NCBI GenBank assembly: GCA_002305675.1
Contig: DBQA01000006.1
Location: forward strand, 25,422 to 89,421
Direction: 5' to 3'
DNA length: 64,000 nt
Origin: Patescibacteria group bacterium UBA1406
GTDB lineage: Bacteria; Patescibacteriota; Microgenomatia; UBA1406
Shown: in pieces, positions 5,284 through 19,392 of the stretch
Layout: each line of letters begins with the position of its first letter
Position numbering within the stretch: position 1 is the first letter of the stretch
The notes under the pieces: model-generated
Databases searched by the model: none
What the model was told of the DNA's origin: nothing
What the model saw: only the letters and a program-made list of their open reading frames with translations
Translations under genes and position numbers: made by a program

Positions 5284-5404
5284 GGCTGGGACTAATCGAC
5301 TATGTTGGAACTTATTATAGAGAATATCTTTACAAGGATAAAGTCATGGCTTATGCCTGATTATTTTAATTGGGGAAAGAGTGAAAAAAGTCTATAATTA
5401 AACT

Positions 5405-5947
5405 ATGAAACTGTTGAAATCCAACAAACTACCTTTAATAGGAATCTTGGTAATGGTTTCACTGCTTATCGCCCTTACGATATGGAGAGGTCAACAAAAC
5501 TCACTTGCAGAAAACGCTAAAGCTCCAGGGAACGATTGGGACTCGCCTAAAAGAATTGAGGATTACTTCGTTAATGATATGCATATTCCGTCTGATGAAG
5601 CGAAAAGATATGCGGATGTTGGAGTTTCGTTTTATGTGAGAAAAGACAGTACATTGGATGGTATAGTCGGTAATTTAGCCTACTATGGCATTGTCAGGGA
5701 TGAAGAAACTTTACGATACGCTCTGAAGCACACAAATGATACAGCTCCTGGCAAGGAAGGTGCGATTAAGGTAGATGACGAGAGATCGATTGATCTGGCA
5801 GCGTATGGATTATCGAGGAATATGGACACTTGGCAGGTAGCCGATGCTCTGCTCAATAAACCTCATTTCGTCAATCTGACAGAATATACCTATATGTTTA
5901 TGCCTGGTGACCCGAATGATCGAACTGGCCCAAGGGCGAGTGAATAA
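5405..5947 (+). CDS. Hypothetical membrane-anchored protein (180 aa)
   Basis: An N-terminal TM/signal anchor (LPLIGILVMVSLLIALTIW). Codon usage is AT-rich like the island. TATAAT lies 6 nt upstream of the ATG. No family recognised. Confidence 0.45.
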   Translation: MKLLKSNKLPLIGILVMVSLLIALTIWRGQQNSLAENAKAPGNDWDSPKRIEDYFVNDMHIPSDEAKRYADVGVSFYVRKDSTLDGIVGNLAYYGIVRDEETLRYALKHTNDTAPGKEGAIKVDDERSIDLAAYGLSRNMDTWQVADALLNKPHFVNLTEYTYMFMPGDPNDRTGPRASE

Positions 5948-6068
5948 CTTTTTCCCAGATTCGTTGATTCACGCTTTTGAATAATCGTTCATGGGCATTG
6001 ATTAACGCCTGTAAGAACTTTTCCTTTTCGGTCAAGGACGCTTTAGTGAGGTTGGTTTTTACTTTCAT
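5898..6068 (-). CDS. Possible 56-aa ORF or gene remnant immediately downstream of ygjP-like gene
   Basis: Hand-translated as MKVKTNLTKASLTEKEKFLQALINAHERLFKSVNQRIWEKVIHSPLGQFDHSGHQA. Its ATG lies 3 nt after the ygjP-like stop. Its last 50 nt overlap the convergent ORF 5405..5947. Confidence 0.2.
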   Translation of the reverse strand: MKVKTNLTKASLTEKEKFLQALINAHERLFKSVNQRIWEKVIHSPLGQFDHSGHQA

Positions 6069-6071
6069 AAT

Positions 6072-6641
6072 TCAATTCAGCATCAAACCTTTGGATTTGA
6101 GTTCATGGACCAATTCCTTATAGTTAGGCAATACACTTGCCAGTAAGTTCCAATATCTTCGGGAATGGCTAAACTCCTTCAAGTGGCACAGCTCATGAAT
6201 CACAATATAATCAGCCAAATGATCAGGAAGTAAGACGATCCGCCAGTTAAAGTTTAGGTTCTTCTTTTTTGAGCAACTACCCCAGCAAGTTTTCTGGTCT
6301 TTAATAGCCACCTTATTGAACTTGAATCCAAACTTGCGGTTGAAGCGTTTGACCTTTTCTTCTACCAGCTCCAATGCTTTCTGCTTGAGAGTATCACTAT
6401 CCATATCTTCATAGGCTTTAGGCTGATTCTTTTTCAGTCCTTCAAAAAAGTCAATCTTTTCCAATACCCAGCGTGACTTTTGGATCAGATACTGGTCAAT
6501 GGTATTGGATTTGAGGGAATTTGGGACTGTTACTACAAAATCTCCTGTGCAATAGACAGTTAAGCGCATCCTCTTGGCTCTTTTACTGCGTTTGAGGGTA
6601 TAGGCAACTTCCCGATTGTGCAGTTTAATTTGTTTTTGCAT
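6072..6641 (-). CDS. YgjP-like M48/DUF45 zinc metallohydrolase
   Basis: 189 aa with an HExxH motif in IVIHELCHLKEFSHSRRYW. The start overlaps the hsdR stop (TAATG). This family is commonly linked to type I R-M loci. Confidence 0.8.
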   Translation of the reverse strand: MQKQIKLHNREVAYTLKRSKRAKRMRLTVYCTGDFVVTVPNSLKSNTIDQYLIQKSRWVLEKIDFFEGLKKNQPKAYEDMDSDTLKQKALELVEEKVKRFNRKFGFKFNKVAIKDQKTCWGSCSKKKNLNFNWRIVLLPDHLADYIVIHELCHLKEFSHSRRYWNLLASVLPNYKELVHELKSKGLMLN

Positions 6642-9550
6642 TAGAATCGTTTAATGACAACATCAATTAGCCTGTTTAGGTACTTGGAAAAGTCGGATAC
6701 TGTCAATTTCCCTCGGTAGTCTTTCAGAATAATCTCTTGCAGGGTCTTTTTGGCGTTTTTCAAAAACTCCTCACGCTTGGATGAGTTTTGCCAGCCTTCA
6801 TCTAAAATATCAGACAATCGTCTGGTAATGTCTTGCACCAGTTCAATCAACTGTTCCTGTTTGGCTTCTTTGACAAACTCCTGGGAGATGGTAAATAACC
6901 CATACTCACGCAAGTCCAACCCTAACGCTTTGGCTTCATCACCTTTGCTTTTGATGTCGTTAAGAAGATCGTAGTAACGCTTAATTCTTTCTGACAGGTC
7001 AATCTGTTGGTTCTCAAACTCTTTTTTAATAGCCGATAGCTTCTCACTGAATCTGACAAATACAGGGTTTGTATCAACATTGATGGAGATTTCCTGTTTG
7101 ATGATTTTCTCCAAGTTTCGGGCTTTCTCCTCATCATCCATCTTGTCCAGCCGCTCCATTGTATAAAGATCATTAACCTTGAGTTCCCTAAAGTTTCGGG
7201 TAATGCCTTCATAATCAATCCGGTTTTGAATAAGCTGTTTGACCTTTTCGCCATATTCGGCCAGCATTTCATAGTCAACCCCTTGGCTTCTGAACTCTTT
7301 GACAAAAGCCAGATAAAAGCTCGTGATCCACTCAAACTTGCGAAGATACTGGGACAGGAAAGGATCAGGGGACAATATCTCAAACAGAAGCTTTAACCTA
7401 CTGTACTTATCGGCAAAGAATTGTTGTTTTCTTTCATTATCGGTGAATATCTTGAGTGACCGCCTCAAGTTTTCCATTGAAGGATCTTCAATGTTGATGC
7501 CAACAAACAAATCCATAACCTCGCCCATGACTTTGGCAAACTCTTCTTTGAGCTTGTCGATGTTGAGCATGGCCGAATCAACAATACTTTCGTCAAAGTT
7601 CAGAGCATCATAAAGATTTTTGGTTATACCATAGTAATCAATGATCTTGCCGCATCCTTTGTTGGGATAAACTCGGTTGGTGCGTGCGATTGCCTGAAGC
7701 AGGTTATGATCCCGAAGGGGTTTATCCAAGTACATCACCTGCTCAAGCGGAGCATCAAAACCAGTTAAAAGCATGTCGCAGACCAGTAAAAACTTGAGCG
7801 GGCTGTTGGGGTCTTTGAATCGGGCAATAATTTTCTCTCGCTCTCGTTTGTTGGTGTTGTATTCTTTGAGATTATCGCTGTCAGTATTGGGATCGCCCGG
7901 GGAATAAACCACCTCTGACCATTCAGGGGAGGTTAACTGATCAATCATCGCTTTATACTTGGCTGTGGCTTCTCGGTCATAACAAACAATTTGAGCCTTG
8001 AATCCGTTTGGTTCAACATATAGGCGGTAATGCTCAACAATATCTCTGGCTACTGCCTCCATGCGTTTATCCAGTTTAACCAGTGCTTCTTTTTTGCCAT
8101 ACTTTCGCATCAGCAAGTCCTTCTGCTCTGGGGTAAGATCAGTAGTCATCTCGTCAAACTGCTCATCTACTTTCTGCTCGTCTATGAAAAACTTTGACAG
8201 TCGAGCTTCGTAGGTAACAGGCAAAGTGGCTCCGTCATCTATGGCTTGTTGAATCGAGTAGTAATCCAGGTATCGCTCTCCGTCTTGACCAAAGTTTCGG
8301 TGGGTATTGAGGGTCGCCTTATCAATCGGAGTGCCAGTGAAGCCAAAGTAAAAAGCTTGCTGCATTGAAGTCCGCAGGTTTATAGCTGATACTCCTTCAT
8401 TATCTCGGTGGGCTTCATCGGACAGAACAATAATGTTTTCGTTGGGATTTTCAATGTTTGATCCCAGTTCCGTAAACTTCTGGATGGTAGAAATAAAAAT
8501 ACCACGCTCTTGGTTGTAGATTTTCTGCTCCAGATCACGCCTTGAAGTAACCCGAATGACATTTTTGCCTCCACAGTTGACGAAGGTGTCGTATATCTGA
8601 TCATCCAAATCAATGCGGTCAACCAAAACAAACACTTTAGGATTATTAAGTTCCTTATCAAAGCGAAGTTTCCAGGCAGTAAAGAACATGGTCAAACTCT
8701 TGCCTGACCCTTGGGTATGCCAAATTAAGCCTCGTTTCTTTTCGCCTTCCTTGACCCGCTCCACAATTTTGTTAGTAGCCCTATACTGCTGATACCTGGC
8801 AATCTTTTTGATTTTCGCTTCTTTTTCCTGTTCAAAGGTTATAAAGTTGCCGATAATATCCAACAACCTCTCGTGTACCAATAAAGCCGATAGAGTCATC
8901 TCCAGTTGGCCACCAGTTTCTTTTTCAAGCTCCTCATCTCTCCACTGTAAGAAGTATTGGGGTGTGGCATAAGTGGCAGCATAAAAGGTCTTGAGTCCGT
9001 CTGTGGCGACATTAAAGCAGTTTGGCCAGTAGAGCTTCAGGGCGTTCTTCTCATACCGCTTGAGCTGTCCGACTGCCTTGGAATAATCAACTGATTCTCC
9101 GGCGGTTGGGCTTTTGGCTTCAATATCAACCAAAGGCAATCCATTTACAAAGACCATAATGTCCGGTCTGATGTTTTCCAGATTACCTTCAAAGTAAAAC
9201 TGGTTGGTTACGACATAACGATTGTTTTCTGGTTTATCCAGATCAACGACATGGTAATCTCGCATCTTGCCAGTTTGGGGGTCTTTCAGATTAACGCCAT
9301 AGCGGTATAGTTTCAAAAAACCCTCATTAGTGTCGATCTTTTTTACTTCCCGAAGGACAGTCAAAGCTTCATCATCTCCAATATCGTTTATGCGTTTTAT
9401 TGCCTCAAGCAGATGAGGAGTAATCAAATATTCCGTTTCAAACTCGCGAAGTTTAGAAAACTCTTCCGGCTTGATGTACTCATACCCAAGGGACTGGGAT
9501 AAGTATTTAATAATGTGTTTTTCGACTGTATATTGTTCGTTGAATTTCAT
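6641..9550 (-). CDS. hsdR: Type I restriction endonuclease subunit R
   Basis: 969 aa. The N-terminal nuclease-like region contains PDIMVFVNGLPLVDIEAK. Helicase motifs are HTQGSGKSLTMF (Walker A), VLSDEAHR (DEAH) and QAIARTNR (motif VI). Confidence 0.95.
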   Translation of the reverse strand: MKFNEQYTVEKHIIKYLSQSLGYEYIKPEEFSKLREFETEYLITPHLLEAIKRINDIGDDEALTVLREVKKIDTNEGFLKLYRYGVNLKDPQTGKMRDYHVVDLDKPENNRYVVTNQFYFEGNLENIRPDIMVFVNGLPLVDIEAKSPTAGESVDYSKAVGQLKRYEKNALKLYWPNCFNVATDGLKTFYAATYATPQYFLQWRDEELEKETGGQLEMTLSALLVHERLLDIIGNFITFEQEKEAKIKKIARYQQYRATNKIVERVKEGEKKRGLIWHTQGSGKSLTMFFTAWKLRFDKELNNPKVFVLVDRIDLDDQIYDTFVNCGGKNVIRVTSRRDLEQKIYNQERGIFISTIQKFTELGSNIENPNENIIVLSDEAHRDNEGVSAINLRTSMQQAFYFGFTGTPIDKATLNTHRNFGQDGERYLDYYSIQQAIDDGATLPVTYEARLSKFFIDEQKVDEQFDEMTTDLTPEQKDLLMRKYGKKEALVKLDKRMEAVARDIVEHYRLYVEPNGFKAQIVCYDREATAKYKAMIDQLTSPEWSEVVYSPGDPNTDSDNLKEYNTNKREREKIIARFKDPNSPLKFLLVCDMLLTGFDAPLEQVMYLDKPLRDHNLLQAIARTNRVYPNKGCGKIIDYYGITKNLYDALNFDESIVDSAMLNIDKLKEEFAKVMGEVMDLFVGINIEDPSMENLRRSLKIFTDNERKQQFFADKYSRLKLLFEILSPDPFLSQYLRKFEWITSFYLAFVKEFRSQGVDYEMLAEYGEKVKQLIQNRIDYEGITRNFRELKVNDLYTMERLDKMDDEEKARNLEKIIKQEISINVDTNPVFVRFSEKLSAIKKEFENQQIDLSERIKRYYDLLNDIKSKGDEAKALGLDLREYGLFTISQEFVKEAKQEQLIELVQDITRRLSDILDEGWQNSSKREEFLKNAKKTLQEIILKDYRGKLTVSDFSKYLNRLIDVVIKRF

Positions 9551-9551
9551 G

Positions 9552-10157
9552 TTATGATTTTTTAATTCTCTTAACTTCTATAGTTCCGTGATTATTCCTG
9601 TCACGACCAGAATAATAGTAGCCAGTTAAGGTGTCTTTTTCTTCATCGTGTACTAACTTTGCTGATCCTTCATGCATCGCCATGGTTTCGACAGCATCAT
9701 ATTTAGGCTCGTTTCTAAAAAAATAAAAAAGAGCGACCTTGTTATCAATATCACTTCTGCTGAAGTTTTCATGTACACTTACTGATTTTGACTGGTCGAA
9801 AGTGCCACATAATGTAATGTCAGTTGCTGTTTGTTCAATTACCAGTTCTGCTTTTATATCTTTCTGGAAATTATCGTAGGACGACTTAACAATACCTTGC
9901 CATTTTCCGTTAAGGTCATCGGCAATAATTATTCCAATTCTCCTAAAGAATGGATGTTTCCAAAGATAATTGTTGAAAACCCAAAATAAGATGGAATACA
10001 CACCCACAGTAGAGATCGGTAAATCAATGTAAAAAGGTAAAACAATTTGGTTACTTTTCAACAGTTGAGAGATTAAGTAAGAGATGATTACACTAACTGC
10101 TATTAAGATCAAGATAAAGTATGTGAATTTTTTATAGTTATCGCTGTTTATATTCAT
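9552..10157 (-). CDS. Two-TM, beta-strand-rich putative CBASS effector (SMODS-associated 2TM-beta / Cap15-like)
   Basis: 201 aa with two N-terminal hydrophobic helices (FTYFILILIAVSVIISYLISQLL and ISTVGVYSILFWVFNNYLW). A strand-rich C-terminal ~130 aa follows (GKWQGIVKS..ELVIEQTATDITLCGTF..VALFYFFRNEP..LTGYYYSGRDRNNHGTIEVKR). ATGA overlap with the upstream NTase gene. Confidence 0.55.
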   Translation of the reverse strand: MNINSDNYKKFTYFILILIAVSVIISYLISQLLKSNQIVLPFYIDLPISTVGVYSILFWVFNNYLWKHPFFRRIGIIIADDLNGKWQGIVKSSYDNFQKDIKAELVIEQTATDITLCGTFDQSKSVSVHENFSRSDIDNKVALFYFFRNEPKYDAVETMAMHEGSAKLVHDEEKDTLTGYYYSGRDRNNHGTIEVKRIKKS

Positions 10158-11095
10158 AGTGTTAATTTGCCCAAGAAATAATTAGCCATGACATTGATAA
10201 ACTTTATGAGATCATCCAGATTCCAGGTTTTCGGACTGAAAAGTGTATCTTGTTCATTTGCACAAATAAAACCAGTAATCCTTCCGGCCTCTATTGCGTC
10301 AAGAATAAACTGTAATGATTTGAGCATGCAATCCGTATAACTTCCATCAAAGCATGGACTGGTACAGTTGTATAAAAGATTTTCGATAAAGTATGAAGGA
10401 GCTGTTTTCTCATCTAAATGACCATGATCAATTAGATTATTCCGCATGTTTTTGTATATTCTGACCAAATCCTTGAATTTCCCAGAAGTATCAACATTCT
10501 TGGATTCGCAGTTTTCAAGATGCTTTTTGGGGTAGTTGATTATTTCAGTATCATCTGAAGTATCATAGAATCGCATCCCTTCAACAAATCTTTGGTCGGT
10601 ATATGAAAGGAATCTTTTGTAAATCCTGTATTGAAGGCAAGGTACGACATCTGCATCTACCCGATTACTATTTTTTATAACATTCAAACACTTTTTATCC
10701 CATTGAACCTGCCCCTGCCCAAAATCACGCAGTAATGCGTCATAGACATCTTTTTTGAAATGTTTGAATAAGTAAAGGCTGGTACTATGCATTGAATCAT
10801 AAAGAGCTTTTTGTGTAGATTCTAATCCGGTTGTATCAGATTTGAAAACGCTATCAAGTTGAACAACAATATCCACATCACTGTCAAATCTGACATTCGT
10901 GCTGTTGGCGTATGATCCCTGAAGATAAACTTCATATTTGAACTCGGACAAATTAAACGCTTTCTTAATTTCATCAAGAGGTAATTGCCTCCTTAATGCT
11001 TCCTCAATAATTTCTCTTGTCCTCTTAATCTTCTCCATTTCAGTAGGACTGGGAGCGCTTGACCAAGTTTGTAATTGCTGTTCAGAAATAACCAT
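10154..11095 (-). CDS. CD-NTase/SMODS-like nucleotidyltransferase
   Basis: 313 aa with the Pol-beta NTase triad layout: LQGSYANST (G-S), DSDVDIVV (DxD) and a third acidic motif VDADVVPC about 75 aa later. The helix motif PSYFIENLLYNC follows, as in CD-NTase/OAS-like enzymes. Confidence 0.65.
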   Translation of the reverse strand: MVISEQQLQTWSSAPSPTEMEKIKRTREIIEEALRRQLPLDEIKKAFNLSEFKYEVYLQGSYANSTNVRFDSDVDIVVQLDSVFKSDTTGLESTQKALYDSMHSTSLYLFKHFKKDVYDALLRDFGQGQVQWDKKCLNVIKNSNRVDADVVPCLQYRIYKRFLSYTDQRFVEGMRFYDTSDDTEIINYPKKHLENCESKNVDTSGKFKDLVRIYKNMRNNLIDHGHLDEKTAPSYFIENLLYNCTSPCFDGSYTDCMLKSLQFILDAIEAGRITGFICANEQDTLFSPKTWNLDDLIKFINVMANYFLGKLTL

Positions 11096-11099
11096 AAGT

Positions 11100-12230
11100 C
11101 TAATTCACCTCTACCTTTCTATTAAAAATATCGTGCATTAGTCCATTTTTTAGTGCAGTTAGCTTTTCTTTTGTTCGCCTTTCACTAAATAACTTTGCAT
11201 TAACAGCAGATACAGTAGCAACTATCTTTTCTTGTTCGCTTATGTCAGGTAATGGGACATCAAAATCTCTAATTTCTTCTAAATGTAAATTAGTGACTGT
11301 TCCTTGCTTGCTTCTTTTTGTTGCTTGGTTAATTAAATAATCCGATCCTAATACAATTCCCATGTAGTCTGACAAAACTTGATTGTGATCAGGTTTTATA
11401 AGACAAAGGCTGACGAAAATGCTAAACTCGCGATCCCAATTCACTATTTTTGTAATTCCTATTGTTCCATTCTTTGAAAGCAAAATATCGCCTTTTTCTG
11501 GATGACAGCGTTTTATAAGTTCCGCATGTTCTTCTGGGGAAATGTATTTGGTCGTTCCCCAGTTTATTTCAGGATCTTGTATATCGTTAATTCTCAAGAA
11601 GGGCACACCTGTTTCAGTATATTTTGGAGTTCTGTGAGTTCCATCTGTAATTTTAGAAGTAATAGTATTTAGCTTTACAATTTTCCAAGCAGGATTATTT
11701 TTCCCCTTATCAAAAAGATCAGAGATAATACCTTGTTTTAGTACTTCATTATTCTTAATAATTTCATCAGTAATTGAAATTTGTTTATTTAGTATTCGAA
11801 AATATGTTGATACTTTAACTTGAATATCTTGTGGAGGTAAGTTTACTGGTATTCCCATTAAGTCTGATTTGTTTAATTTACCTCTTGTTGTACCTGAAGT
11901 GTATTGCCTCAAATCAGCATAATTTAGGTATTCCTTTAGAAAATCAATGTCAGCATTAGTTACTCTCAAAACATGAGCGTGATTATTGACCCAACTTTTA
12001 CCCTCGATGATATAGGCAGTGTTTGCATATGCCGACCAGTCAGCTCCATCTTCACCAACAAGAAGCAACTTTTCGTCAAAGATGTAATCATCAACATAAT
12101 CAACAATTCCAGTAGCTCCATAATAAGGAATTGTGCCTTTAATCCGTTTTGATCTCGTTACAGGAACTCGTAAGTTATCCAAGTTTTCAACAAGCTCGCC
12201 GAGTTTTGATTGCTGCCAGTTATTTGTCAT
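11100..12230 (-). CDS. hsdS: Type I R-M specificity subunit S
   Basis: 376 aa with two target-recognition halves, each followed by a conserved helical spacer (LPPQDIQVKVSTYFRILNKQI and LPDISEQEKIVATVSAVNAKL). It overlaps the hsdM stop by 11 nt. Confidence 0.9.
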   Translation of the reverse strand: MTNNWQQSKLGELVENLDNLRVPVTRSKRIKGTIPYYGATGIVDYVDDYIFDEKLLLVGEDGADWSAYANTAYIIEGKSWVNNHAHVLRVTNADIDFLKEYLNYADLRQYTSGTTRGKLNKSDLMGIPVNLPPQDIQVKVSTYFRILNKQISITDEIIKNNEVLKQGIISDLFDKGKNNPAWKIVKLNTITSKITDGTHRTPKYTETGVPFLRINDIQDPEINWGTTKYISPEEHAELIKRCHPEKGDILLSKNGTIGITKIVNWDREFSIFVSLCLIKPDHNQVLSDYMGIVLGSDYLINQATKRSKQGTVTNLHLEEIRDFDVPLPDISEQEKIVATVSAVNAKLFSERRTKEKLTALKNGLMHDIFNRKVEVN

Positions 12231-13911: not shown

Positions 13912-14088
13912 ATCAATCTTAATTTAATTCATCCATAGTTGGATGATAGTTGGTAAAGAGTATAGCTGTTCTTTTACCAAAATGCAAGAGTAATGTTTCA
14001 TAGGTATTCATAGGTTTGATCTACTTTTCCATTTGACACGAGCCTGCTCTCTGCTACGCTTACGATATACATATAAACAATTATTTAG

Positions 14089-14241
14089 ATGGATATGACA
14101 ATTAAAAGGAAAGTTATTAGGAAACGAAAAACAAGAAATACTCCAAGGCTACTCTCCCAGTCCGAGATCATCAAAAAGATCAACCGCCACACTCGAAAAA
14201 GTTACCAGTTATTCGAGTTATTGCTGTGGGAAAAAGATTGA
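14089..14241 (+). CDS. Possible 50-aa basic ORF immediately upstream of the integrase
   Basis: Hand-translated as MDMTIKRKVIRKRKTRNTPRLLSQSEIIKKINRHTRKSYQLFELLLWEKD. Its stop lies 1 nt before the integrase ATG. It is below the track cutoff. It may be an Xis-like or regulatory peptide, or spurious. Confidence 0.25.
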   Translation: MDMTIKRKVIRKRKTRNTPRLLSQSEIIKKINRHTRKSYQLFELLLWEKD

Positions 14242-14242: not shown

Positions 14243-15202
14243 ATGGAAAATAACCTGATTGTTTATAAACATGGTCAATTTAATCCTCTGGAATGGCCAC
14301 AGAGGCTGTTTGAACACTTGGATGTGTCAGATACGACCAGAATAGAGTACGGAGCGAGAATTAACCTTTTTATTGATTTTATTAAGGAGAAAGGCTTTAA
14401 CCGCAACAGCTACCTTGAATATAAGGGACACCTGTCCCGCAGGACTGACTTTTCTGTAAGCACCAAAAACAAATACCTGATTGTTGCCAGAGTCTTTTGT
14501 AAGGAACTGCACCGGCAGGGATATTTGCCAGTTGATATTACCCAGAACATTAAATCCTTCAAGCAGTCCAGGAAACACAAAAAGGATGGACTGACAGAAG
14601 GAGAAATCCAGAAAATACTATCTCACTTTCAGACAGTTGAGAACAGTAAAGATACCAGTCGAGCCAAGGCGTTACTTTCACTGTTGATTCTGCAAGGACT
14701 TCGGCAAATTGAGATAGTTCGCCTGAATGTGACTGAAATTGATATAGTTTCCCAAACAGCTTTTGTGCAAGGTAAAGGCAGGGATGACAAGGAAGTAATT
14801 GATCTGCACCCGGTCACAGTATCAGCTCTCAAAGATTACATTAGAAAGTGGAAAGTGGCAGACGGAGCATTATTCACCAGCACAAGCAATAACAGCAAGC
14901 ACCACAGACTAACCACACGATCCATCCGTAACATCATCAACCCCTTATTAAGAAGTCTTGAGATTGATAAAACAGTACATGGATTCAGACATTACTTCAC
15001 CACCAAACTTATCAAGTCTTATAAAGGTGATCTTTTAACAGTCGCCCAGTACACCAGACACAAGAGTCTGGAAATGCTTCAGATCTACAACGACACTATC
15101 AAACACAAGGCTGATTTACCCAAATATTACCAGACTTTTGAGAGCGTCAATTTTGACCAATTTGAGCCTTCCATTTCCCATAATTTACATTACAAGAAAT
15201 AA
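14243..15202 (+). CDS. Tyrosine site-specific recombinase/integrase
   Basis: 319 aa with an N-terminal SAM-like core-binding region. Catalytic-domain motifs are LILQGLRQIEIVRL (Arg), HGFRHYFTT (H-x-x-R) and TRHKSLEMLQIY (His...Tyr). Confidence 0.85.
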   Translation: MENNLIVYKHGQFNPLEWPQRLFEHLDVSDTTRIEYGARINLFIDFIKEKGFNRNSYLEYKGHLSRRTDFSVSTKNKYLIVARVFCKELHRQGYLPVDITQNIKSFKQSRKHKKDGLTEGEIQKILSHFQTVENSKDTSRAKALLSLLILQGLRQIEIVRLNVTEIDIVSQTAFVQGKGRDDKEVIDLHPVTVSALKDYIRKWKVADGALFTSTSNNSKHHRLTTRSIRNIINPLLRSLEIDKTVHGFRHYFTTKLIKSYKGDLLTVAQYTRHKSLEMLQIYNDTIKHKADLPKYYQTFESVNFDQFEPSISHNLHYKK

Positions 15203-15207
15203 AAACT

Positions 15208-15894
15208 ATGACTGACAAAAGACAACCAAAAACAGACCAACAACCACTCATCAAAACAGATGAAACCCAAACCAAGCAGGGAAAGCGGTTTGAGCTAATG
15301 ACCAAAAACGGATATAGACTGGATGAGGTTGTCAGTGCCTTACAGAAATCAATCAGGAGAGGACAGGAACAAAGGGCTGTCTATTGGGCTTATGAGATGT
15401 TTGAATCGGGGTATATCAAGTATCTGTGGAGGAGATTATCAGTTATAGCTCTGGAAGACATAAGCCTCGCAGACCCATTCGCTGCGGTACTGGTCAATTC
15501 TCTGGCTCAATCCAGTGAACGGATCAATCAGAAAGACAAGATTGAAGTACTTCACCCTGGAATGGCTGTGATCTACTTGTGCCGAGCCAAAAAGTCCAGA
15601 GAGGTGGATTATTGTTTGGAAATTGTCGAACACCAGAGAAAATCTGGTGAAAAATTAAAACTGGAAGATTATGAATTGGATAGCCACACCGAGGAAGGTA
15701 AAAGAAAGTTAAGAAAACAGGCTAAAGAACAAGGAATTAGTTATGAGCGATTGGTCGATGAACAGTTCTATTACGAGGGAGCGTTACTGGATAACTCTGT
15801 ACCAGTTATGGATGACAAATGGAAGAAGGAAGTTTGGGAGTTAAGGAAGCTGGATAAAGGAAAAATTGATAATCAGCATAAAACAGAGAAATGA
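15208..15894 (+). CDS. Hypothetical protein with an MgsA/RarA C-terminal-like helical domain (no AAA+ module)
   Basis: VVSALQKSIRRGQEQRAVYWAYEMFESGY...LWRRLSVIALEDISLADPFA resembles the MgsA_C pattern (S.L.KSIRGSD.DAALYW.ARM...GEDP..I.RRL...A.EDIGLADP). Confidence 0.45.
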   Translation: MTDKRQPKTDQQPLIKTDETQTKQGKRFELMTKNGYRLDEVVSALQKSIRRGQEQRAVYWAYEMFESGYIKYLWRRLSVIALEDISLADPFAAVLVNSLAQSSERINQKDKIEVLHPGMAVIYLCRAKKSREVDYCLEIVEHQRKSGEKLKLEDYELDSHTEEGKRKLRKQAKEQGISYERLVDEQFYYEGALLDNSVPVMDDKWKKEVWELRKLDKGKIDNQHKTEK

Positions 15895-16040: not shown

Positions 16041-16838
16041 ATGTATATTGAACCGATTCCTATTGAAATTGAGGATAATAAAGTCTTTGCACAAATAGCT
16101 TATCTTTTAGATGGAACAAGCATTATCAATGAAATACTTGAAATTAGGGAATCATTCAAAATCCAGAAGCCATTTGATGCTGATAATCGTAATGCTTGGA
16201 AAACGCACTTATTAAAACTGGCTGGATACGACCTCAATGAATATAAGGATATGAAGAAAATCCATGCAGGTGATCCCAACTTGGATAATAAAGAGTGGGA
16301 AAAACTGAAACGATGGTCAGTAGAAAACGAGCAACATCAACTACAATTTGTACAACTTCAAAAACAGTTCTGGGAAAAAATTGCCCATGTAAGGCGACTG
16401 TATCACTATCCTCCTCTTTATGACGATGTAATTATCCAAGCGGTTTTATTTAACAAGGTATCTCATTTCAAATCCGCTTATGCACGATTAACCCATGGGA
16501 ATGAAACCGATCTGCTTATAGGAGATGAAAACGATATTGTACATAAAATCATTTTGACTCCTTACGCCACCAGAGAGGATGTATTAGCTGCGTTTGATGA
16601 GATTAAAGGAGAGGAAACAAAAAAAGAGTCACAATTAACTGATCCGCCTTTTTCTCCTAAACTGGAAGCGGATACAAGGAACAAAATTAGAGATTTCCGT
16701 AAGTGGTACTGGATGAACTATAAAAACAATCCAGACAAGGTAGGTTATCGTAAGTTGGCAAAATTAACTGGCATGAATATGGAAACAGTCAGGAGTGGAA
16801 TCAGGTCATATTCAGACTTCATTAGCTTCAAAGCATAG
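16041..16838 (+). CDS. Hypothetical protein with a probable C-terminal HTH
   Basis: 265 aa. The C-terminal GYRKLAKLTGMNMETVRSGIRSY looks like a helix-turn-helix. No family recognised. Confidence 0.45.
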   Translation: MYIEPIPIEIEDNKVFAQIAYLLDGTSIINEILEIRESFKIQKPFDADNRNAWKTHLLKLAGYDLNEYKDMKKIHAGDPNLDNKEWEKLKRWSVENEQHQLQFVQLQKQFWEKIAHVRRLYHYPPLYDDVIIQAVLFNKVSHFKSAYARLTHGNETDLLIGDENDIVHKIILTPYATREDVLAAFDEIKGEETKKESQLTDPPFSPKLEADTRNKIRDFRKWYWMNYKNNPDKVGYRKLAKLTGMNMETVRSGIRSYSDFISFKA

Positions 16839-16907
16839 TGTTGGTTTAGCGACACCCAATAATAACAACTTATAGAGTGCCATAAACCTTTATATCATCT
16901 TCGTAGT

Positions 16908-17117
16908 ATGAAGATGAATAAGAAATCGCAAAAACTATCTTCTCCCAAATGGCTGACAGAAGAACTTCAATTCAAGGTTAGGTCTGTTTTTGAGCCAAAG
17001 TACAATCGCCCCCTTTCTGATGACGAAGTTATTACTATTGCTGAAAACCTGGCTGATTTTATGGATCACTTTTTCAAGTTCAAATGGAGATTAGACTATG
17101 CAAATCAAACAAAATAA
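16908..17117 (+). CDS. Hypothetical small protein (69 aa)
   Basis: ORF only. It is in a co-directional array with its neighbours and overlaps the next ORF by 20 nt. Confidence 0.35.
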   Translation: MKMNKKSQKLSSPKWLTEELQFKVRSVFEPKYNRPLSDDEVITIAENLADFMDHFFKFKWRLDYANQTK

Positions 17118-17346
17118 TCAGGAAGAATACTCGACCAAAGATTTAGGTCACGCAACAGCCTTACTTACTGCCGGAATCAGGCTCATCCGCCTTGAAAAGG
17201 AATTCAATTTTTACTGGTTTGTTTTTGACAGCCAGGGTGCGGAAGAAATAACAAACGCATACCTCTCTGGAGAATTAAGACAACCAGTCAAGCAATACAG
17301 TATGAATATGCGTTTTCTAAAAGATCGTTTATTTGCAGAACGATAA
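17098..17346 (+). CDS. Hypothetical small protein, DUF5659-like
   Basis: The pattern YSTKDLGHATALLTAGIRLIRLEKE.NFYWFVFDS resembles a phage/CPR small-domain family (DUF5659, from memory). Weak call. Confidence 0.4.
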   Translation: MQIKQNNQEEYSTKDLGHATALLTAGIRLIRLEKEFNFYWFVFDSQGAEEITNAYLSGELRQPVKQYSMNMRFLKDRLFAER

Positions 17347-17371
17347 CTATTTTTTAATAGATGAATATTAT

Positions 17372-17722
17372 ATGGAATTAAGAATTAAAATCTACGCTCT
17401 CGAAACAGACTTATCGCTTCAAGCCAGAAGTGACAATATCCTTGCCTTTGTTACTTGGATTTTCAAGACAGACATTGGTGATATTAAAATTAAAGGCGGT
17501 ACTATAAGGAGAAAAGAGTTCGGATCTAAAAGCCTTTTATCCTATGATGTCCCAGCAATTAAAACCAGACATGGATATAACAAGGCTTTCTTCATGGACA
17601 ATAAGGAATTATTTTTGAAATTAAGTAACTTCACCATTCAAAAATACTGCGAAGAAAGCGGTGAACCAGTTAGCGGTTTTTCAAATATCGAAGATATTAA
17701 CCCCGATGAAATACCAATATGA
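17372..17722 (+). CDS. Hypothetical protein (116 aa), possibly SpoVG-like fold
   Basis: I prefer the ATG at 17372 (MELRIKIYAL...) over the TTG at 17333. The alternating-strand N-terminus (ILAFVTWIFKTDIGDIKIKGGTIRRKEFG) is loosely reminiscent of SpoVG. Low confidence. Confidence 0.35.
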   Translation: MELRIKIYALETDLSLQARSDNILAFVTWIFKTDIGDIKIKGGTIRRKEFGSKSLLSYDVPAIKTRHGYNKAFFMDNKELFLKLSNFTIQKYCEESGEPVSGFSNIEDINPDEIPI

Positions 17723-17738
17723 TAAAAGCTATAATGAA

Positions 17739-17822
17739 AGTAACTATTATAGTTACTATTAAGAGTAACAATAGTAACGGTGACTATATTGTTAAAGTAG
17801 TTAGTATCTGGTAAGAGGTAAC
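17739..17822. promoter_or_regulatory. GTAAC-motif cluster and palindrome upstream of the serine recombinase gene
   Basis: A 19-bp palindrome AGTAACTAT-T-ATAGTTACT at 17739..17757. Three further GTAAC copies at 17765, 17774 and 17818. All lie in the 111-nt gap before the recombinase ATG. Confidence 0.35.
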
Positions 17823-17833
17823 AATATAAAGAT

Positions 17834-19381
17834 ATGTATATGAATAATAGTATTATTTACATTGACTATAAGAGGAAATCATCAGAAGCTAAAGAACGCC
17901 AAGCTCTTTCACTAAAGGATCAGGGTGCAGAAAACAAAAAGGTTGAGCTTCGGGAAAAACTTAATGTTAAATACCGATTTTCAGAAAGTCGGTCAGCGTT
18001 CAAACCTCACAACAGGCCGGATTTTGATAAGGCCATTCAACTTATTAAAAGCGGAAAAGCCAACGCCTTCTTATGCTGGAAAGAAGATCGGCTTTGTCGA
18101 AACCCTGAAGAAGGTGGAATAATACTACAGTTATTGCAGGACGGTATCCTCAAAGAAATCCGCACAGCCACAGGAGCGGTCTATACACAGGACTCTGACC
18201 ACCTGATCCTACAAATACACTTTGGTATGGCTAATCAGTATTCCCGAAACTTGAGCCAGAATGTAAGGCGAGGCCTGAACCACAAATGTGAACGAGGAGA
18301 ATACCCAAGACCAGCCCCGATTGGTTATGAAGGGTTTGGGGATATCGGTCAAAGACAAATGAGGCCACACCCGACAGAATCAATCGTCATTAAAAAGCTG
18401 TACGAGTTAGCAAAAACTGGTGGATACTCACTATCCCAACTGGTAAAAATTGCTCAAGAGTTGGAACTAAAAACGAAACATGGAAAAAAAGTAAGTAAGA
18501 GTCACCTCTACAATATCATTACCCGACCAACTTATTATGGCTATTTTTACCACAATGGTGAGATGTTCGAAGGTACATACGAACCAATTATCACCAAGAA
18601 ACTATTTGATGAGGTGCAAGAGGCATTACAAAGGCGTTCCAAGCCTAAAGTGAAGGTATGGGAACACACTTACAATGGATTGATTACCTGTGGTGATTGT
18701 GGCTGTCAGATCACAACTACTATCAAAACAAAGTATTACAGAAGGACAAACAGGACTGTTGTTTATACCTATCACCACTGTACCCATCGCAAAGGTAACT
18801 GTTCCCAAAAAGCTATAACAGGTAAAAGGCTCGAAAAGCTGTTAATTGAAGTAATGACCAAAATTAAGATTGATGAGGAAACATGGAAGCTGGGTATCGA
18901 ACTGTTCAAGGCCAAACACCAGGAAGAGATGGAGAAGTTTTCAAAACGAGCCAGATATTTACAAAACAAGTACAACAATATCCAAACCCAATTAAAAGCA
19001 TTAGTTCGGATGAGAGCGGATGAAGAACTTACCAAAGAGGAGTTTTTGGAACAGAAAGCAGAACTTCTGAAAGACAAAAAGGACATCAAGGAAAAAGTTG
19101 AAGATAACGATTACTCTGCCGACACATGGTTAGAACTCTGTACAAAGTATTTGGAAACCGCTTTTTCCGCCAGAGAAACAATAGAAAAAGGTACGCCGCA
19201 AGAAAAGAGGGATTTAATCTTGGATTTGGGTGAGAACCTAATTTTGAAGAATGGAATACTCGATTTTCGCCTCAAAAAACCTTATGACGCACTCCTCTTG
19301 CCAGAATATCGTACTAATGTGCTGGGGGACAGGGATTCGAACCCCGATTCACGGCTCCAAAGGCCGCTGTCCTACCATTAG
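17834..19381 (+). CDS. Large serine recombinase
   Basis: The N-terminal resolvase domain has IDYKRKSSEAKERQALSLKDQ (Ser nucleophile context) and WKEDRLCRNPEEG. The recombinase domain has GEYPRPAPIGYEG. There is a zinc ribbon (CGDCGCQ...YHHCTHRKGNCSQ) and a long coiled coil. The last ~60 nt of the ORF are antisense tRNA-Gln sequence, so the true C-terminus is uncertain. ATG at 17840 is an alternative start. Confidence 0.85.
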   Translation: MYMNNSIIYIDYKRKSSEAKERQALSLKDQGAENKKVELREKLNVKYRFSESRSAFKPHNRPDFDKAIQLIKSGKANAFLCWKEDRLCRNPEEGGIILQLLQDGILKEIRTATGAVYTQDSDHLILQIHFGMANQYSRNLSQNVRRGLNHKCERGEYPRPAPIGYEGFGDIGQRQMRPHPTESIVIKKLYELAKTGGYSLSQLVKIAQELELKTKHGKKVSKSHLYNIITRPTYYGYFYHNGEMFEGTYEPIITKKLFDEVQEALQRRSKPKVKVWEHTYNGLITCGDCGCQITTTIKTKYYRRTNRTVVYTYHHCTHRKGNCSQKAITGKRLEKLLIEVMTKIKIDEETWKLGIELFKAKHQEEMEKFSKRARYLQNKYNNIQTQLKALVRMRADEELTKEEFLEQKAELLKDKKDIKEKVEDNDYSADTWLELCTKYLETAFSARETIEKGTPQEKRDLILDLGENLILKNGILDFRLKKPYDALLLPEYRTNVLGDRDSNPDSRLQRPLSYH

Positions 19382-19392
19382 ACGATCCCCCA
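19322..19392 (-). tRNA. tRNA-Gln (anticodon TTG)
   Basis: Hand-folded. The acceptor TGGGGGA pairs with TCCCCCA (U1-A72). The anticodon arm is GCGGC-CTTTGGA-GCCGT and the T arm is CGGGG-TTCGAAT-CCCTG. The discriminator is G. CCA is not fully encoded. Confidence 0.9.

What the first reader, a model, noticed from the sequence alone, without database searches (positions are those of the whole stretch)
5290..19392. AT-rich 14-kb island inserted at the 3' side of tRNA-Gln, carrying both a tyrosine and a large serine recombinase
Composition drops visibly from about 50% GC in the flanks to about 30-40% between about 5.3 kb and the tRNA-Gln 3' end. This is judged from hand counts on sampled lines, not computed. 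The content is entirely accessory: an R-M/CBASS-like array, two recombinases of different families and six ORFs of unknown function. Two recombinases suggest either a composite of two elements (boundary near 13.9-14.2 kb) or a division of labour. Mobile elements in CPR-like genomes are poorly characterised.
Basis: partly seen in the sequence, partly recalled or inferred. Interest (0 to 1): 0.6.

Follow-up and report, generated by a model that had tools for sequence, protein, structure and literature searches.

The report
Serine-integrase defence island in tRNA-Gln
A 14-kb mobile island carrying phage-defence genes sits exactly at the end of a tRNA-Gln gene in a candidate-phyla-radiation bacterium, and it appears to have been inserted by a large serine integrase, an enzyme type scarcely known to use tRNA genes as targets.

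Summary
Window 5289-19324 (14,036 bp, 39.1% GC against 50.5% elsewhere) is a discrete insertion. Two contigs from other metagenomes, with flanks 99.7-99.9% identical, join the methyltransferase stop codon directly to tRNA-Gln. This is the empty site, and only GCTGGG is shared by both junctions.

The large serine recombinase (LSR) ORF runs across the right junction into the antisense of the tRNA. In 54 of 80 related loci, mostly candidate-phyla-radiation (CPR) genome bins, a tRNA 3' end abuts the LSR gene. Among the close relatives it does so in a fixed nucleotide register. Sibling elements of 6-7 kb have no tyrosine recombinase but show the same junction, so the LSR is the integrase.

The far end carries a conserved 30-nt P' arm. 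It extends the LSR frame (ALVDYVGTFY-type tail) and shows codon-like variation. Integration therefore swaps the integrase C-terminus.

The tyrosine recombinase is Xer-like and belongs to a conserved backbone that recurs with different LSRs and different cargo. Its role is unknown. A composite of two independent elements is unlikely.

The cargo is a type I restriction-modification operon with a CBASS system nested inside it.

The parts
5285..5290 (.). attL core. GCTGGG is shared with attR; the inferred crossover dinucleotide TG is at 5287-5288.
   Evidence: The empty-site contigs L001 and L002 read ...GTACTAGGGCTGGGGGACAGGG..., while the window reads ...gtactagggctggg|actaatcgac. Identity to L001 ends exactly at 5290.
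5289..5360 (+). P' arm of the attachment site (30 conserved nt, 5289-5318). It continues as the predicted C-terminal tail of the LSR in the circular form: GLIDYVGTYYREYLYKDKVMAYA, then a stop.
   Evidence: The position-weight-matrix (PWM) score is 37-41 bits against a background maximum of about 10. The same motif lies upstream of LSR genes in about 25 loci. Single-nucleotide codon differences are 61% synonymous in the LSR frame and 17-18% in the other two frames. A natural contiguous P-P' junction occurs in L094.
5405..5947 (+). orf180, a secreted or membrane-anchored protein of unknown function. It is the first gene after attL.
   Evidence: It lies inside the insertion. A 90% identical homologue occupies the same position in the L090 element. 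The only Pfam match is a weak YceG hit.
6072..6641 (-). YgjP-like metallopeptidase, the last gene of the restriction-modification operon.
   Evidence: Pfam PF01863, E = 1.5e-44. Syntenic in L091-L093.
6641..9550 (-). Type I restriction enzyme subunit HsdR.
   Evidence: Pfam HSDR_N, SWI2_SNF2 and ResIII; PADLOC REase_I, E = 1.5e-137.
9552..10157 (-). CBASS effector Cap15 (two transmembrane helices plus a cyclic-dinucleotide receptor domain).
   Evidence: Pfam PF18153 and PF23471; PADLOC 2TM effector, E = 6e-54.
10154..11095 (-). CBASS CD-NTase (oligonucleotide cyclase).
   Evidence: PADLOC Cyclase, E = 8e-95; Pfam NTP_transf_2 and SMODS.
11100..12230 (-). Type I specificity subunit HsdS.
   Evidence: Pfam Methylase_S; PADLOC Specificity_I. 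Only 27-28% identical to HsdS in sibling elements whose HsdR and HsdM are 83-89% identical.
12220..13911 (-). Type I methyltransferase HsdM with an N-terminal MerR-type helix-turn-helix.
   Evidence: Pfam N6_Mtase, E = 6e-111, plus HsdM_N and MerR_1; PADLOC MTase_I.
13996..14016 (+). Motif TTTCATAGGTATTCATAGGTT at the cargo end, just before the cargo/backbone boundary (14016-14028).
   Evidence: It occurs once in the window, with 0 of 100 shuffles giving a match. It is present in L091 and as an inverted pair in L092/93.
14089..14241 (+). Small conserved basic ORF (50 aa) at the start of the backbone operon, behind a conserved TTGACA-type promoter-like sequence.
   Evidence: Translation; conservation in alignment A2.
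14243..15202 (+). Xer-like tyrosine recombinase. It is a backbone gene, and the evidence argues it is not the tRNA integrase.
   Evidence: Pfam PF00589. The best solved-structure relatives are XerC-like, XerA, XerD and XerH. It has 2079 homologues, many above 60% identity. It co-occurs with MgsA_C and an LSR in L005-7, L085-88 and L090-93.
15208..15894 (+). Protein consisting only of an MgsA/RarA C-terminal domain. Always found next to the tyrosine recombinase.
   Evidence: Pfam PF12002; PHROG 33349; synteny.
16041..16838 (+). orf265, unknown function.
   Evidence: No family hit. Homologues in L005-7 and L085.
16908..17117 (+). orf69, a small protein linked to the LSR. Candidate regulator or recombination directionality factor (RDF).
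   Evidence: Found just upstream of the LSR in 30 related loci.
17098..17346 (+). DUF5659 protein, linked to the LSR.
   Evidence: Pfam PF18903. Found in 20 related loci next to the LSR.
17333..17722 (+). orf129, unknown function.
   Evidence: No family hit. 60% identical homologue in L085.
17834..19381 (+). Large serine recombinase. Codons up to L495 (19324) are element-encoded. The last 20 codons (GDRDSNPDSRLQRPLSYH...) are the antisense of the host tRNA-Gln.
   Evidence: Pfam Resolvase, Recombinase and Zn_ribbon_recom. The AF2 model of homologue P0070 shows a catalytic domain, recombinase domain, zinc ribbon and long coiled coil. Foldseek aligns it full-length to Bxb1, PhiC31, LI and other serine integrases at E = 1e-21 to 1e-12. 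Junction anatomy.
19291..19326 (.). attR. The P arm lies inside the LSR codons for PEYRTNVL. The core GCTGGG is at 19321-19326, with the inferred crossover TG at 19323-19324 (tRNA positions 72-71).
   Evidence: The 11-nt register between the N493 codon and the tRNA end is constant in all close relatives. DNA homology to relatives ends at 19323. The core intersection is G[C/A]T[G/C].
19322..19392 (-). Host tRNA-Gln(UUG), the integration target. It is intact after insertion.
   Evidence: ARAGORN; Rfam tRNA, 62.3 bits. The sequence is identical in the empty-site contigs.

Best explanation
Window 5289-19324 is one integrative mobile element of 14,036 bp. Its own large serine recombinase (LSR, 17834-19381) inserted it by site-specific recombination into the extreme 3' end of tRNA-Gln(UUG) in a Patescibacteria (Microgenomates-group) genome.

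Inferred mechanism. The circular form carries attP inside the 3' end of the LSR gene. The P arm is the codons for ...PEYRTNVL. The crossover is a TG dinucleotide. The P' arm continues the reading frame as a conserved tail (G/A-L-I/V-D-Y-V-G-T-Y/F-Y). attB is centred on tRNA positions 71-72. Its B' half-site is the acceptor/T-arm of the tRNA and its B half-site is the variable downstream DNA.

Recombination leaves the tRNA sequence unchanged, because the element supplies the discriminator base. It places the LSR gene convergent with and overlapping the tRNA, and moves the last conserved LSR codons 14 kb away to attL. The integrated copy therefore encodes an LSR whose C-terminus is replaced by a peptide read from the antisense of the tRNA.

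The element consists of a conserved backbone (small ORF, Xer-like tyrosine recombinase, MgsA_C protein, orf265, orf69, DUF5659, orf129, LSR) and exchangeable defence cargo. Here the cargo is a type I restriction-modification operon with a two-gene CBASS nested between hsdS and hsdR, plus YgjP.

The tyrosine recombinase is not needed for tRNA insertion. It most likely acts on the element itself, for example by resolving multimers of the circular form.

What is shown: the insertion polymorphism, the exact junctions, the family-wide link between LSR and tRNA, the conserved P' arm with a coding signature, and the mosaic structure. What is inferred: the catalytic event, the exact crossover dinucleotide, any regulatory meaning of the tail swap, and the role of the tyrosine recombinase.
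For: (1) Empty site. Contigs from SRR8427164 and SRR28719897 join the methyltransferase stop codon directly to tRNA-Gln. Their flanks are 99.66% identical over 5290 bp and 99.89% over 11,035 bp.

(2) Foreign composition.

(3) Only 6 bp (GCTGGG) are shared by the two junctions, and no tRNA fragment is repeated. In sibling elements the shared core is only 4-7 bp. This fits a serine integrase.

(4) The LSR ORF crosses attR. In 54 of 80 related loci a minus-strand tRNA overlaps or abuts the LSR 3' end (13 tRNA types, 26 of them Gln), against a background of 0.094 tRNA per kb. In every close relative where a tRNA was called, the tRNA end lies in one fixed register after the N493 codon: 11 nt, or 9 nt where the call includes an encoded CCA.

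(5) Of the 120 best homologues, 56 have tails that read as antisense T-arm and 51 stop within 4 aa of the core.

(6) Elements with no detected tyrosine recombinase have the same attL/attR logic: L012 (6.9 kb, type II restriction-modification) and L032 (6.3 kb, CBASS plus an FtsK-like gene).

(7) A conserved P' arm lies at the far ends of about 25 elements. It is in frame with the LSR, with 61% synonymous differences against 17-18% in the other frames. A contiguous natural P-P' junction (L094) closely matches the attP predicted for the window.

(8) TTCGAAC in B' and TTGGAAC in P' lie 5 bp apart relative to the core, and GTGC-TG-GCAC forms an inverted repeat around the core. This matches the known attB/attP logic of large serine integrases.

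(9) DNA homology to relatives integrated at other tRNAs ends at 19323.

(10) The fold and domains are those of a large serine integrase.
Against: - Excision or a circular form of this particular element has not been seen. The predicted attP junction has no exact match in the JGI metagenome contigs, and reads could not be examined.
- No recombination directionality factor was identified.
- The B half-sites are poorly conserved between hosts, and the symmetry of attP is only partial.
- The crossover dinucleotide is inferred from an intersection of shared cores, not measured.
- The integrated LSR lacks its conserved tail and could be inactive, which would leave the element immobile.
- The empty sites come from other samples, not from the source sample.
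- A second recombinase with no assigned function is present.
Confidence: 0.85

Rival explanations
1. The tyrosine recombinase (14243-15202) is the integrase that put the island into tRNA-Gln, as in classical tRNA-targeting genomic islands. The serine recombinase would then be a passenger or a resolvase.
For: tRNA genes are the typical targets of tyrosine integrases. [quoted passage not shown] A 6-bp identical core is compatible with a tyrosine-recombinase overlap region. The catalytic motifs look intact (by inspection).
Against: Sibling elements without any tyrosine recombinase show the same junctions. The junction keeps a fixed nucleotide register with LSR codons. The far-end arm continues the LSR reading frame with a coding signature. 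The tyrosine recombinase sits 5 kb from the nearer end. It is Xer-like, with no arm-binding domain detected. The same tyrosine recombinase (71-89% identity) occurs in elements at tRNA-Asn and tRNA-Glu, with a different LSR at each.
Confidence: 0.04
2. The island is a composite of two independently integrated elements lying in tandem, joined near 13.9-14.2 kb. The left one would be a defence element that has lost its integrase.
For: Homology to several relatives starts sharply at 14025-14028. Tandem arrays of LSR elements do occur in this family (L085-88 and L090). The cargo and the backbone are on opposite strands.
Against: No P, P' or tRNA-like sequence lies at the boundary, and the only P' arm in the window is at 5289. 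There is no LSR remnant in 13912-14027. The complete layout of restriction-modification cargo, tyrosine recombinase, MgsA_C and LSR recurs in L091-L093. orf180 at the far left is 90% identical to the leftmost gene of the L090 element, whose tyrosine recombinase and MgsA_C are 89-91% identical. GC and tetranucleotide usage are alike in the two halves. The boundary is better read as the edge of a cargo-exchange region within one element.
Confidence: 0.07
3. The element is a phage-derived satellite or a defective prophage that moves between cells in capsids supplied by a helper phage, rather than a plasmid-like or conjugative island.
For: It is small (family range 5.9-14 kb). Its integrase matches a phage integrase family (PHROG 95). 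A relative in attP configuration (L089) lies next to a small-terminase gene. Relatives carry P4-cII-like and Prim-Pol/D5-type genes.
Against: The island has no capsid, portal, terminase or lysis gene. No relative was found in IMG/VR. One sibling carries an FtsK/SpoIIIE-type gene, which hints at a different transfer route. This rival concerns only intercellular transfer and is compatible with the integration mechanism above.
Confidence: 0.15
4. This is not an insertion. The region would be ancestral, and the 'empty' genomes would have lost it by deletion.
For: Only two empty-site contigs were seen, both from other samples.
Against: GC is 11 points lower and tetranucleotide usage is foreign. The breakpoints fall exactly at integrase-type att sites. 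The same element family sits at 13 different tRNA types. Precise loss through attL x attR would itself be integrase-mediated excision.
Confidence: 0.03

Closest known systems
Large serine integrases of temperate phages and islands (PhiC31, Bxb1, Listeria A118/LI integrase, TP901-1; CcrAB of SCCmec)
   Same: Same domain order: resolvase catalytic domain, recombinase domain, zinc ribbon with an inserted coiled coil. Short att sites with a tiny shared core and no long direct repeats. The integrase gene lies next to attP. A conserved outer motif is offset by 5 bp between the B-type and P-type half-sites. Like SCCmec at rlmH, the target is the 3' end of a conserved housekeeping gene.
   Different: Only 15-20% identical to any solved LSR, with no PDB hit by sequence for the single protein. 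The target is the 3' end of tRNA genes across a whole clade. Use of a tRNA or tmRNA gene by a serine integrase was described as not previously reported and in need of proof (PMC7192596), and the large LSR survey PMC10083194 does not mention tRNA. attP lies inside the integrase ORF, so integration replaces the C-terminus.
tRNA-targeting genomic islands with tyrosine integrases (Islander/TIGER class, P4-like islands)
   Same: Insertion at the 3' part of a tRNA gene with the tRNA restored. The integrase gene sits at the tRNA-proximal end. Foreign composition and accessory cargo. Repeated use of the same site, including tandem arrays and orphan arms.
   Different: A different enzyme family. The identity block is 4-7 bp instead of a duplicated tRNA fragment of tens of bp. 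Algorithms that look for a tRNA fragment would miss these islands.
Integration-dependent gene truncation in mycobacteriophages BPs and Brujita (Broussard et al. 2013; recalled from memory, not checked here)
   Same: attP lies within the 3' end of a phage gene, so the integrated and free forms encode proteins with different C-termini.
   Different: In those phages the recombinase is a tyrosine integrase and the split gene is the repressor. Here the split gene is the serine integrase itself, and any regulatory effect is untested.
Defence islands: type I restriction-modification operons with an embedded second system (for example prrC inside EcoprrI, recalled from memory) and two-gene type I CBASS with a Cap15 effector
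   Same: hsdM-hsdS-[insert]-hsdR order, with the extra system between hsdS and hsdR. CD-NTase plus a 2TM Cap15 effector.
   Different: The embedded system is CBASS. In L091 a different two-gene insert occupies the same slot. The whole unit rides on an LSR element in a CPR genome.

Membership tests
Large serine recombinase (serine integrase) | N-terminal resolvase-type catalytic domain with the nucleophilic serine | tested here: met
   Pfam PF00239 on residues 10-156. Y12, R14, S16 and Q23 are invariant in 32 homologues. The profile hits the TP901-1 and TnpX catalytic domains.
Large serine recombinase (serine integrase) | C-terminal recombinase domain plus a zinc-ribbon domain with an inserted coiled coil | tested here: met
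   Pfam PF07508 and PF13408. The AF2 model of homologue P0070 has beta-ribbons at 289-313 and helices at 345-392 and 398-441. Foldseek gives full-length matches to Bxb1, PhiC31 and LI integrases, E = 1e-21 to 1e-12.
Large serine recombinase (serine integrase) | Short attP/attB with a 2-bp crossover, imperfect inverted half-sites, and a B-type versus P-type offset of the outer motif | tested here: inconclusive
   The shared core is 4-7 bp, with an invariant T followed by G (Gln) or C (Asn). GTGC-TG-GCAC shows symmetry around the core. TTCGAAC and TTGGAAC are offset by 5 bp. These points are consistent with the family, but the cut site was not measured and the B arms are not conserved.
Large serine recombinase (serine integrase) | Catalyses attP x attB integration; excision needs a recombination directionality factor | not testable with these tools
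   This needs a recombination assay. No directionality factor was recognised; orf69, DUF5659 and orf129 are candidates only.
Integrative genomic island at a tRNA gene | Present or absent at the same site in near-identical genomes (an empty site exists) | tested here: met
   L001/L002 together with L003/L004; flanks 99.66-99.89% identical.
Integrative genomic island at a tRNA gene | Foreign composition and an integrase gene at the tRNA-proximal end | tested here: met
Integrative genomic island at a tRNA gene | Island flanked by the tRNA gene and a direct repeat of a tRNA fragment (the Islander signature of tyrosine-integrase islands) | tested here: not met
   Only GCTGGG (6 bp) is repeated, with no longer direct repeat. 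The window therefore does not belong to the classical tyrosine-integrase class.
Type I restriction-modification system | HsdR, HsdM and HsdS encoded together | tested here: met
   Pfam and PADLOC hits for all three subunits.
CBASS (type I, two-gene) | CD-NTase cyclase adjacent to an effector that carries a nucleotide-sensing domain, with no Cap2/Cap3 or HORMA/TRIP13 genes | tested here: met
   PADLOC Cyclase E = 8e-95 and 2TM effector E = 6e-54; Pfam Cap15_CD_rec and Cap15_TM. No ancillary genes lie between 9552 and 11095.
Prophage | Capsid, portal, terminase, tail and lysis genes | tested here: not met
   No such Pfam or PHROG hit in any island ORF. No IMG/VR relative.
Integrative conjugative or mobilisable element | Relaxase, coupling protein or type IV secretion genes, or an oriT | tested here: not met
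   None was detected among the island proteins. An FtsK-like gene occurs only in sibling L032. oriT cannot be tested.
Integron-like cassette platform (considered for the tyrosine recombinase) | An IntI-type integrase with an adjacent attI site, and cassettes bounded by attC-type repeats | tested here: not met
   The cargo is divergent from the recombinase and is swapped between fixed points (5947 and 14025). However, no repeat above chance links the two boundaries, and the enzyme is Xer-like.

The most novel reading that the evidence does not exclude
A large, CPR-wide clade of large serine integrases has specialised on the 3' ends of tRNA genes. These integrases carry attP inside their own coding sequence. 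The conserved last ten or so residues (ALVDYVGTFY type) are joined to the enzyme only in the circular form, and integration exchanges them for a peptide read from the antisense of the tRNA. This tail swap would act as a built-in switch, changing integrase activity, stability or directionality between the free and integrated states. If so, it would be the first serine-integrase counterpart of integration-dependent gene truncation. The partnered, highly conserved Xer-like recombinase would serve the circular replicon or cargo exchange.
Probability: 0.3. Interest if true: 0.8.

Novelty: new variant of a known kind. Interest (0 to 1): 0.68.

Why it matters
Serine integrases are the workhorses of genome engineering, and they have been regarded as avoiding tRNA genes.

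- A whole clade that targets tRNA 3' ends with 4-7 bp of shared core would add a set of natural, highly conserved landing sites.
- It would explain why mobile islands in CPR genomes escape detectors that search for repeated tRNA fragments.
- It would provide the first defined vehicle for defence systems (restriction-modification, CBASS, Thoeris-like TIR) in these reduced genomes.
- The split integrase gene offers a directly testable idea about how directionality could be set without, or in addition to, a separate directionality factor.
- It also flags a systematic annotation artefact: integrase proteins in databases end in translated antisense tRNA.

Tried and rejected
- Direct or inverted repeats marking the island ends: nothing beyond GCTGGG.
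- Exact look-up of the LSR protein: not on record under that gene call, although the homologue search did return it.
- Exact search for the predicted attP junction in JGI metagenome contigs: 0 hits.
- Family scan of IMG/VR: no relatives.
- Single-sequence search of the LSR against PDB sequences: no hit. The profile reached only catalytic domains, so the fold search was needed.
- Promoter and terminator scans: not above shuffled expectation.
- Repeat search between the two cargo boundaries, testing an integron-like role for the tyrosine recombinase: not above chance.
- The AF2 model gave the attP-form tail only low confidence (pLDDT below 55), so it says nothing about tail function.
- Contigs carrying attP-type LSR tails (L094-L096) end just after the gene, so circularity could not be judged.
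- Literature searches found no description of tRNA-targeting serine integrases in Patescibacteria.
- An NCBIfam scan failed on a coordinate error and was not repeated.

Full report

Yes. Sliding-window GC falls from about 0.50 in the flanks to 0.33-0.44 between 5.5 and 19.4 kb. Over the exact insertion the GC is 39.1%, against 50.5% for the rest of the window. No 1-kb window inside the island exceeds 44.1%, and none outside falls below 45.2%. The tetranucleotide L1 distance to the host mean is 0.42-0.44 for both halves of the island, against 0.10-0.14 for 7-kb host segments.

tRNA-Gln(UUG) is on the minus strand at 19321-19392 by ARAGORN and at 19322-19392 by the Rfam tRNA model. Its 3' end faces the island.

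Family searches give the following gene content:
- a YgjP-like peptidase;
- HsdR, HsdS and HsdM (the last with a MerR-type helix-turn-helix);
- a Cap15 effector and a CD-NTase;
- a tyrosine recombinase and a protein with only an MgsA C-terminal domain;
- a DUF5659 protein;
- a 515-aa large serine recombinase (LSR) with Resolvase, Recombinase and zinc-ribbon domains;
- several ORFs with no match.

**2. Exact boundaries and the empty site**

Exact-protein look-ups of the two flanking host genes found contigs from two other sequencing runs, SRR8427164 and SRR28719897. In both, the stop codon of the methyltransferase gene (window 5283) is followed directly by the tRNA...GTACTAGGGCTGGGGGACAGGGATTCGAACC.... 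The neighbouring contigs continue from the tRNA into corA.

These flanks are 99.66% identical to the window over 5290 bp and 99.89% identical over 11,035 bp. The alignment stops exactly at 5290. The window reads ...gtactagggctggg|actaatcgac at the left junction and ...cgtactaatgt|gctggg|ggacaggg at the right junction.

The insertion is therefore 14,036 bp, and only GCTGGG is shared by the two junctions. No longer repeat of tRNA sequence exists. The tRNA is identical in the occupied and empty states.

**3. Which recombinase did it?**

The LSR ORF (17834-19381) does not stop at the junction. Its last 20 codons (GDRDSNPDSRLQRPLSYH...) are the antisense of the tRNA.

A homologue search returned 526 proteins at E <= 1e-10. 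The named ones come from Curtissbacteria, Woesebacteria, Microgenomates, Pacebacteria and 'Patescibacteria group' bins. The conserved sequence ends at ...KKPYDvLLxPEYRTNVL, after which the tails diverge. Among the best 120 homologues:
- 56 tails contain the antisense T-arm signature (D/E/G-S-N);
- 51 stop within four residues;
- 4 resemble a different, conserved tail.

A scan of one genome per species gave 80 loci, nearly all from CPR bins. In 54 of them a minus-strand tRNA overlaps or abuts the LSR 3' end. These cover 13 tRNA types, 26 of them Gln. Five further loci end at the contig edge. Several others show tRNA-like 3' halves that ARAGORN does not call. The background density is 0.094 tRNA per kb.

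In every relative of 48-80% identity where a tRNA was called, the tRNA end begins in one fixed register after the first base of the codon aligned to N493. The offset is 11 nt, or 9 nt where the call includes an encoded CCA. DNA homology between the window and relatives sitting at tRNA-Asn ends at 19323.

Two sibling elements were mapped end to end and have no tyrosine recombinase:
- L012 is 6.9 kb and carries Vsr, Dcm and an NgoFVII-like endonuclease.
- L032 is 6.3 kb and carries an FtsK-like gene and a CBASS pair.

Together these results make the LSR the integrase.

**4. The attachment sites**

Translating upstream DNA in the LSR orientation revealed a recurrent motif at the far ends of the elements. 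Its consensus is TG|GCACTGGTTGACTATGTAGGAACTTTTTAT, which encodes ALVDYVGTFY. In the window it starts at 5289: GGACTAATCGACTATGTTGGAACTTATTAT, encoding GLIDYVGTYY.

A position-weight matrix built from eight such arms finds sites of 18-43 bits in about 25 loci, where the next-best hits are around 10 bits. It finds only one site in the whole 64-kb window. Eight elements could be mapped at both ends, and they measure 5.9-14 kb.

Joining the P arm (the LSR 3' end) to the P' arm predicts the circular-form attP and a 520-aa LSR ending ...NVLGLIDYVGTYYREYLYKDKVMAYA. A natural contig, L094, contains just such a contiguous junction. Its P arm is identical over the compared stretch and its P' arm is closely similar. 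Its protein, P0070, ends ...NVLALINFVRTYYREIPG....

Variation in the first 30 nt of the P' arm is codon-like:
- Entropy is 0.64, 0.67 and 1.08 bits at codon positions 1, 2 and 3.
- 61% of single-nucleotide codon differences are synonymous in the LSR frame, against 17-18% in the other two frames.

The tail is therefore under protein-level selection, and it is joined to the LSR only in the attP configuration.

The cores shared by attL and attR intersect on G[C/A]T[G/C]. TG (Gln elements) or TC (Asn elements) is the only non-palindromic dinucleotide common to all, and it corresponds to tRNA positions 72-71. The core is flanked by the inverted repeat GTGC/GCAC. TTCGAAC in the tRNA half-site and TTGGAAC in the P' half-site lie 5 bp apart relative to the core. 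This is the offset known for the zinc-ribbon motif in attB and attP half-sites of serine integrases (established knowledge; Rutherford et al. 2013, not checked here). The B arms downstream of the tRNAs are not conserved.

**5. The LSR as a protein**

An AF2 model of homologue P0070 has a mean pLDDT of 83. It shows the catalytic domain, the recombinase domain, zinc-ribbon strands and a long antiparallel coiled coil. The tail has low confidence. Foldseek aligns the model over its full length to solved serine integrases, including Bxb1, PhiC31 and the LI integrase, at E = 1e-21 to 1e-12 and 15-20% identity. Sequence searches against PDB reach only the catalytic domain.

**6. One element or two?**

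DNA homology to the closest relatives begins sharply at 14025-14028, at a conserved TTGACA-type sequence. This lies ahead of a small basic ORF (14089-14241) that abuts the tyrosine recombinase gene. Left of that point the content varies between relatives. The evidence is as follows:
- L090 has orf180, the tyrosine recombinase and MgsA_C at 89-91% identity. Its cargo is different (HaeII-type restriction-modification, Vsr, a ThsB-like TIR protein), and its LSR is only 31% identical and sits at tRNA-Asn. The exchanged segment runs exactly from 5947 to 14025.
- L092/L093 carry the same cargo: HsdR 86%, HsdM 86%, CD-NTase 67%, Cap15 70%, YgjP 71% and HsdS 28%. They also have the tyrosine recombinase (71%), but an LSR with no detectable similarity to the window's, overlapping tRNA-Glu.
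- L091 has the same restriction-modification operon, with a different two-gene insert in place of CBASS.
- No P, P' or tRNA-like sequence lies near 14.0 kb.
- The two cargo boundaries share no repeat above chance.

The tyrosine recombinase family is very large (2079 hits) and strongly conserved. Its nearest solved relatives are the Xer recombinases. Its function remains open. I favour a role on the circular form, such as multimer resolution, but this is inference only.

**7. Host and kind of element**

Ribosomal protein S2 from the flank is at most 60% identical to anything else. Its named matches are Patescibacteria, Roizmanbacteria, Gottesmanbacteria and Microgenomates.

The island has no phage structural, lysis, relaxase or secretion genes, and IMG/VR holds no relatives. 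How it moves between cells is unknown. Hints from relatives point in different directions: a small-terminase neighbour in L089, an FtsK-like gene in L032 and a Prim-Pol/D5 primase in L090.

**8. Comparison with what is known**

[quoted passage not shown] The TIGER paper found tRNA or tmRNA use in 14 of 297 serine-integrase islands, and called it previously unreported and in need of experimental proof (PMC7192596). The large LSR survey PMC10083194 analyses only protein-coding target genes and never mentions tRNA. Searches for Patescibacteria together with serine recombinase found nothing relevant.

As a tRNA-associated defence island the element is ordinary. It is unusual in three respects: the enzyme family that inserts it, the clade-wide specialisation on tRNA 3' ends, and an attP inside the integrase gene with the resulting tail swap. 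I file it as a new variant of a known kind.

**9. Limits**

- No reads were available, so excision was not observed.
- The crossover dinucleotide, the meaning of the tail swap and the role of the tyrosine recombinase are inferences.
- Some record titles in the genome collection ('uncultured Gammaproteobacteria' and the like) are evidently placeholder labels. The statement about taxonomic range rests on the properly named bins.

Noticed in passing
window 9552-11095 (within 6072-13911); L091 4442-6701; L092 4861-6401: The two-gene CBASS is nested between hsdS and hsdR of the type I restriction-modification operon. L092/93 have the same nesting. L091 has a different two-gene insert (319 and 432 aa, no Pfam hit) in the same slot. 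HsdS is only 27-28% identical between elements whose HsdR and HsdM are 83-89% identical. This slot looks like a hot spot for embedded defence genes, as with prrC in EcoprrI.
   Followed up: partly
window 13996-14016; L092 9654-9713 and 12901-12959: The motif TTTCATAGGTATTCATAGGTT (two CATAGGT repeats) lies upstream of hsdM, whose product has an N-terminal MerR-type helix-turn-helix. In L092/93 an inverted pair of about 60 nt containing this motif brackets the 3.2-kb segment holding the tyrosine recombinase, MgsA_C, an HTH gene and orf182. It could be an operator or a recombination site.
   Followed up: partly
L085-L088 (for example L085 2319-19689); L090: Two LSR elements lie in tandem. In L085-L088 the 3' end of the first LSR is fused to the P' arm of the second element (a P-P' hybrid), and only the second LSR abuts tRNA-Asn. 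Canonical attP x attB recombination does not obviously produce such arrays.
   Followed up: no
L016 (4009, 6083), L020 (2131, 2958), L021 (2080, 2805, 3372), L022 (364, 1212), L035 (2614, 3637), L037 (1328, 3736): Several P'-arm copies are stacked upstream of one element, each preceded by a core-like (G)CTG or GTTG. They look like remnants of earlier occupants of the same tRNA site.
   Followed up: no
L005, L008, L018, L022, L025, L031, directly after the LSR core: ARAGORN calls no tRNA here, yet the sequence after the junction looks like a tRNA 3' half (for example GCTCCCCCGGCTGGATTCGGACC). These could be intron-containing tRNA-Asn or tRNA-Asp genes of the kind reported for Patescibacteria (PMC13011429). 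L022 and L025 may instead simply be cut off at the contig end.
   Followed up: no
proteins P0001-P0120: Many database entries for this integrase family end in ...DSNP/DSNL/DSNQ...SYH or SYR, which is translated antisense tRNA. Gene callers extend the ORF through the tRNA, so the annotated C-termini are host-derived.
   Followed up: yes
L032 5522-6673; L090 668-3211; L089 80-313: Sibling elements carry an FtsK/SpoIIIE-type protein, a Prim-Pol/D5_N primase-helicase, or sit next to a small-terminase gene. These hints about replication and transfer modes differ from element to element.
   Followed up: no
L001 end and L003 start; L002 end and L004 start: In both samples holding the empty site, the assembly breaks inside the tRNA-Gln gene, with 30-nt overlaps between contigs. 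This suggests branching assembly graphs there, from other tRNA-Gln copies or from co-existing occupied variants.
   Followed up: no
record titles of L005-L008, L012, L016 and others: Many bins holding these typical CPR elements are titled 'uncultured Gammaproteobacteria/Pseudomonadales bacterium'. These titles look like placeholder or wrong taxonomy labels in the deposited records.
   Followed up: no
window 13902-13920 and 14234-14252; 13906-13923 and 14083-14100: Short inverted repeats (18-19 nt, 84-89% complementary) pair the hsdM start region with the start regions of the small ORF and of the tyrosine recombinase gene. All three starts share ATGGATATG/ATGACA-like sequence. The significance is unknown.
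   Followed up: no
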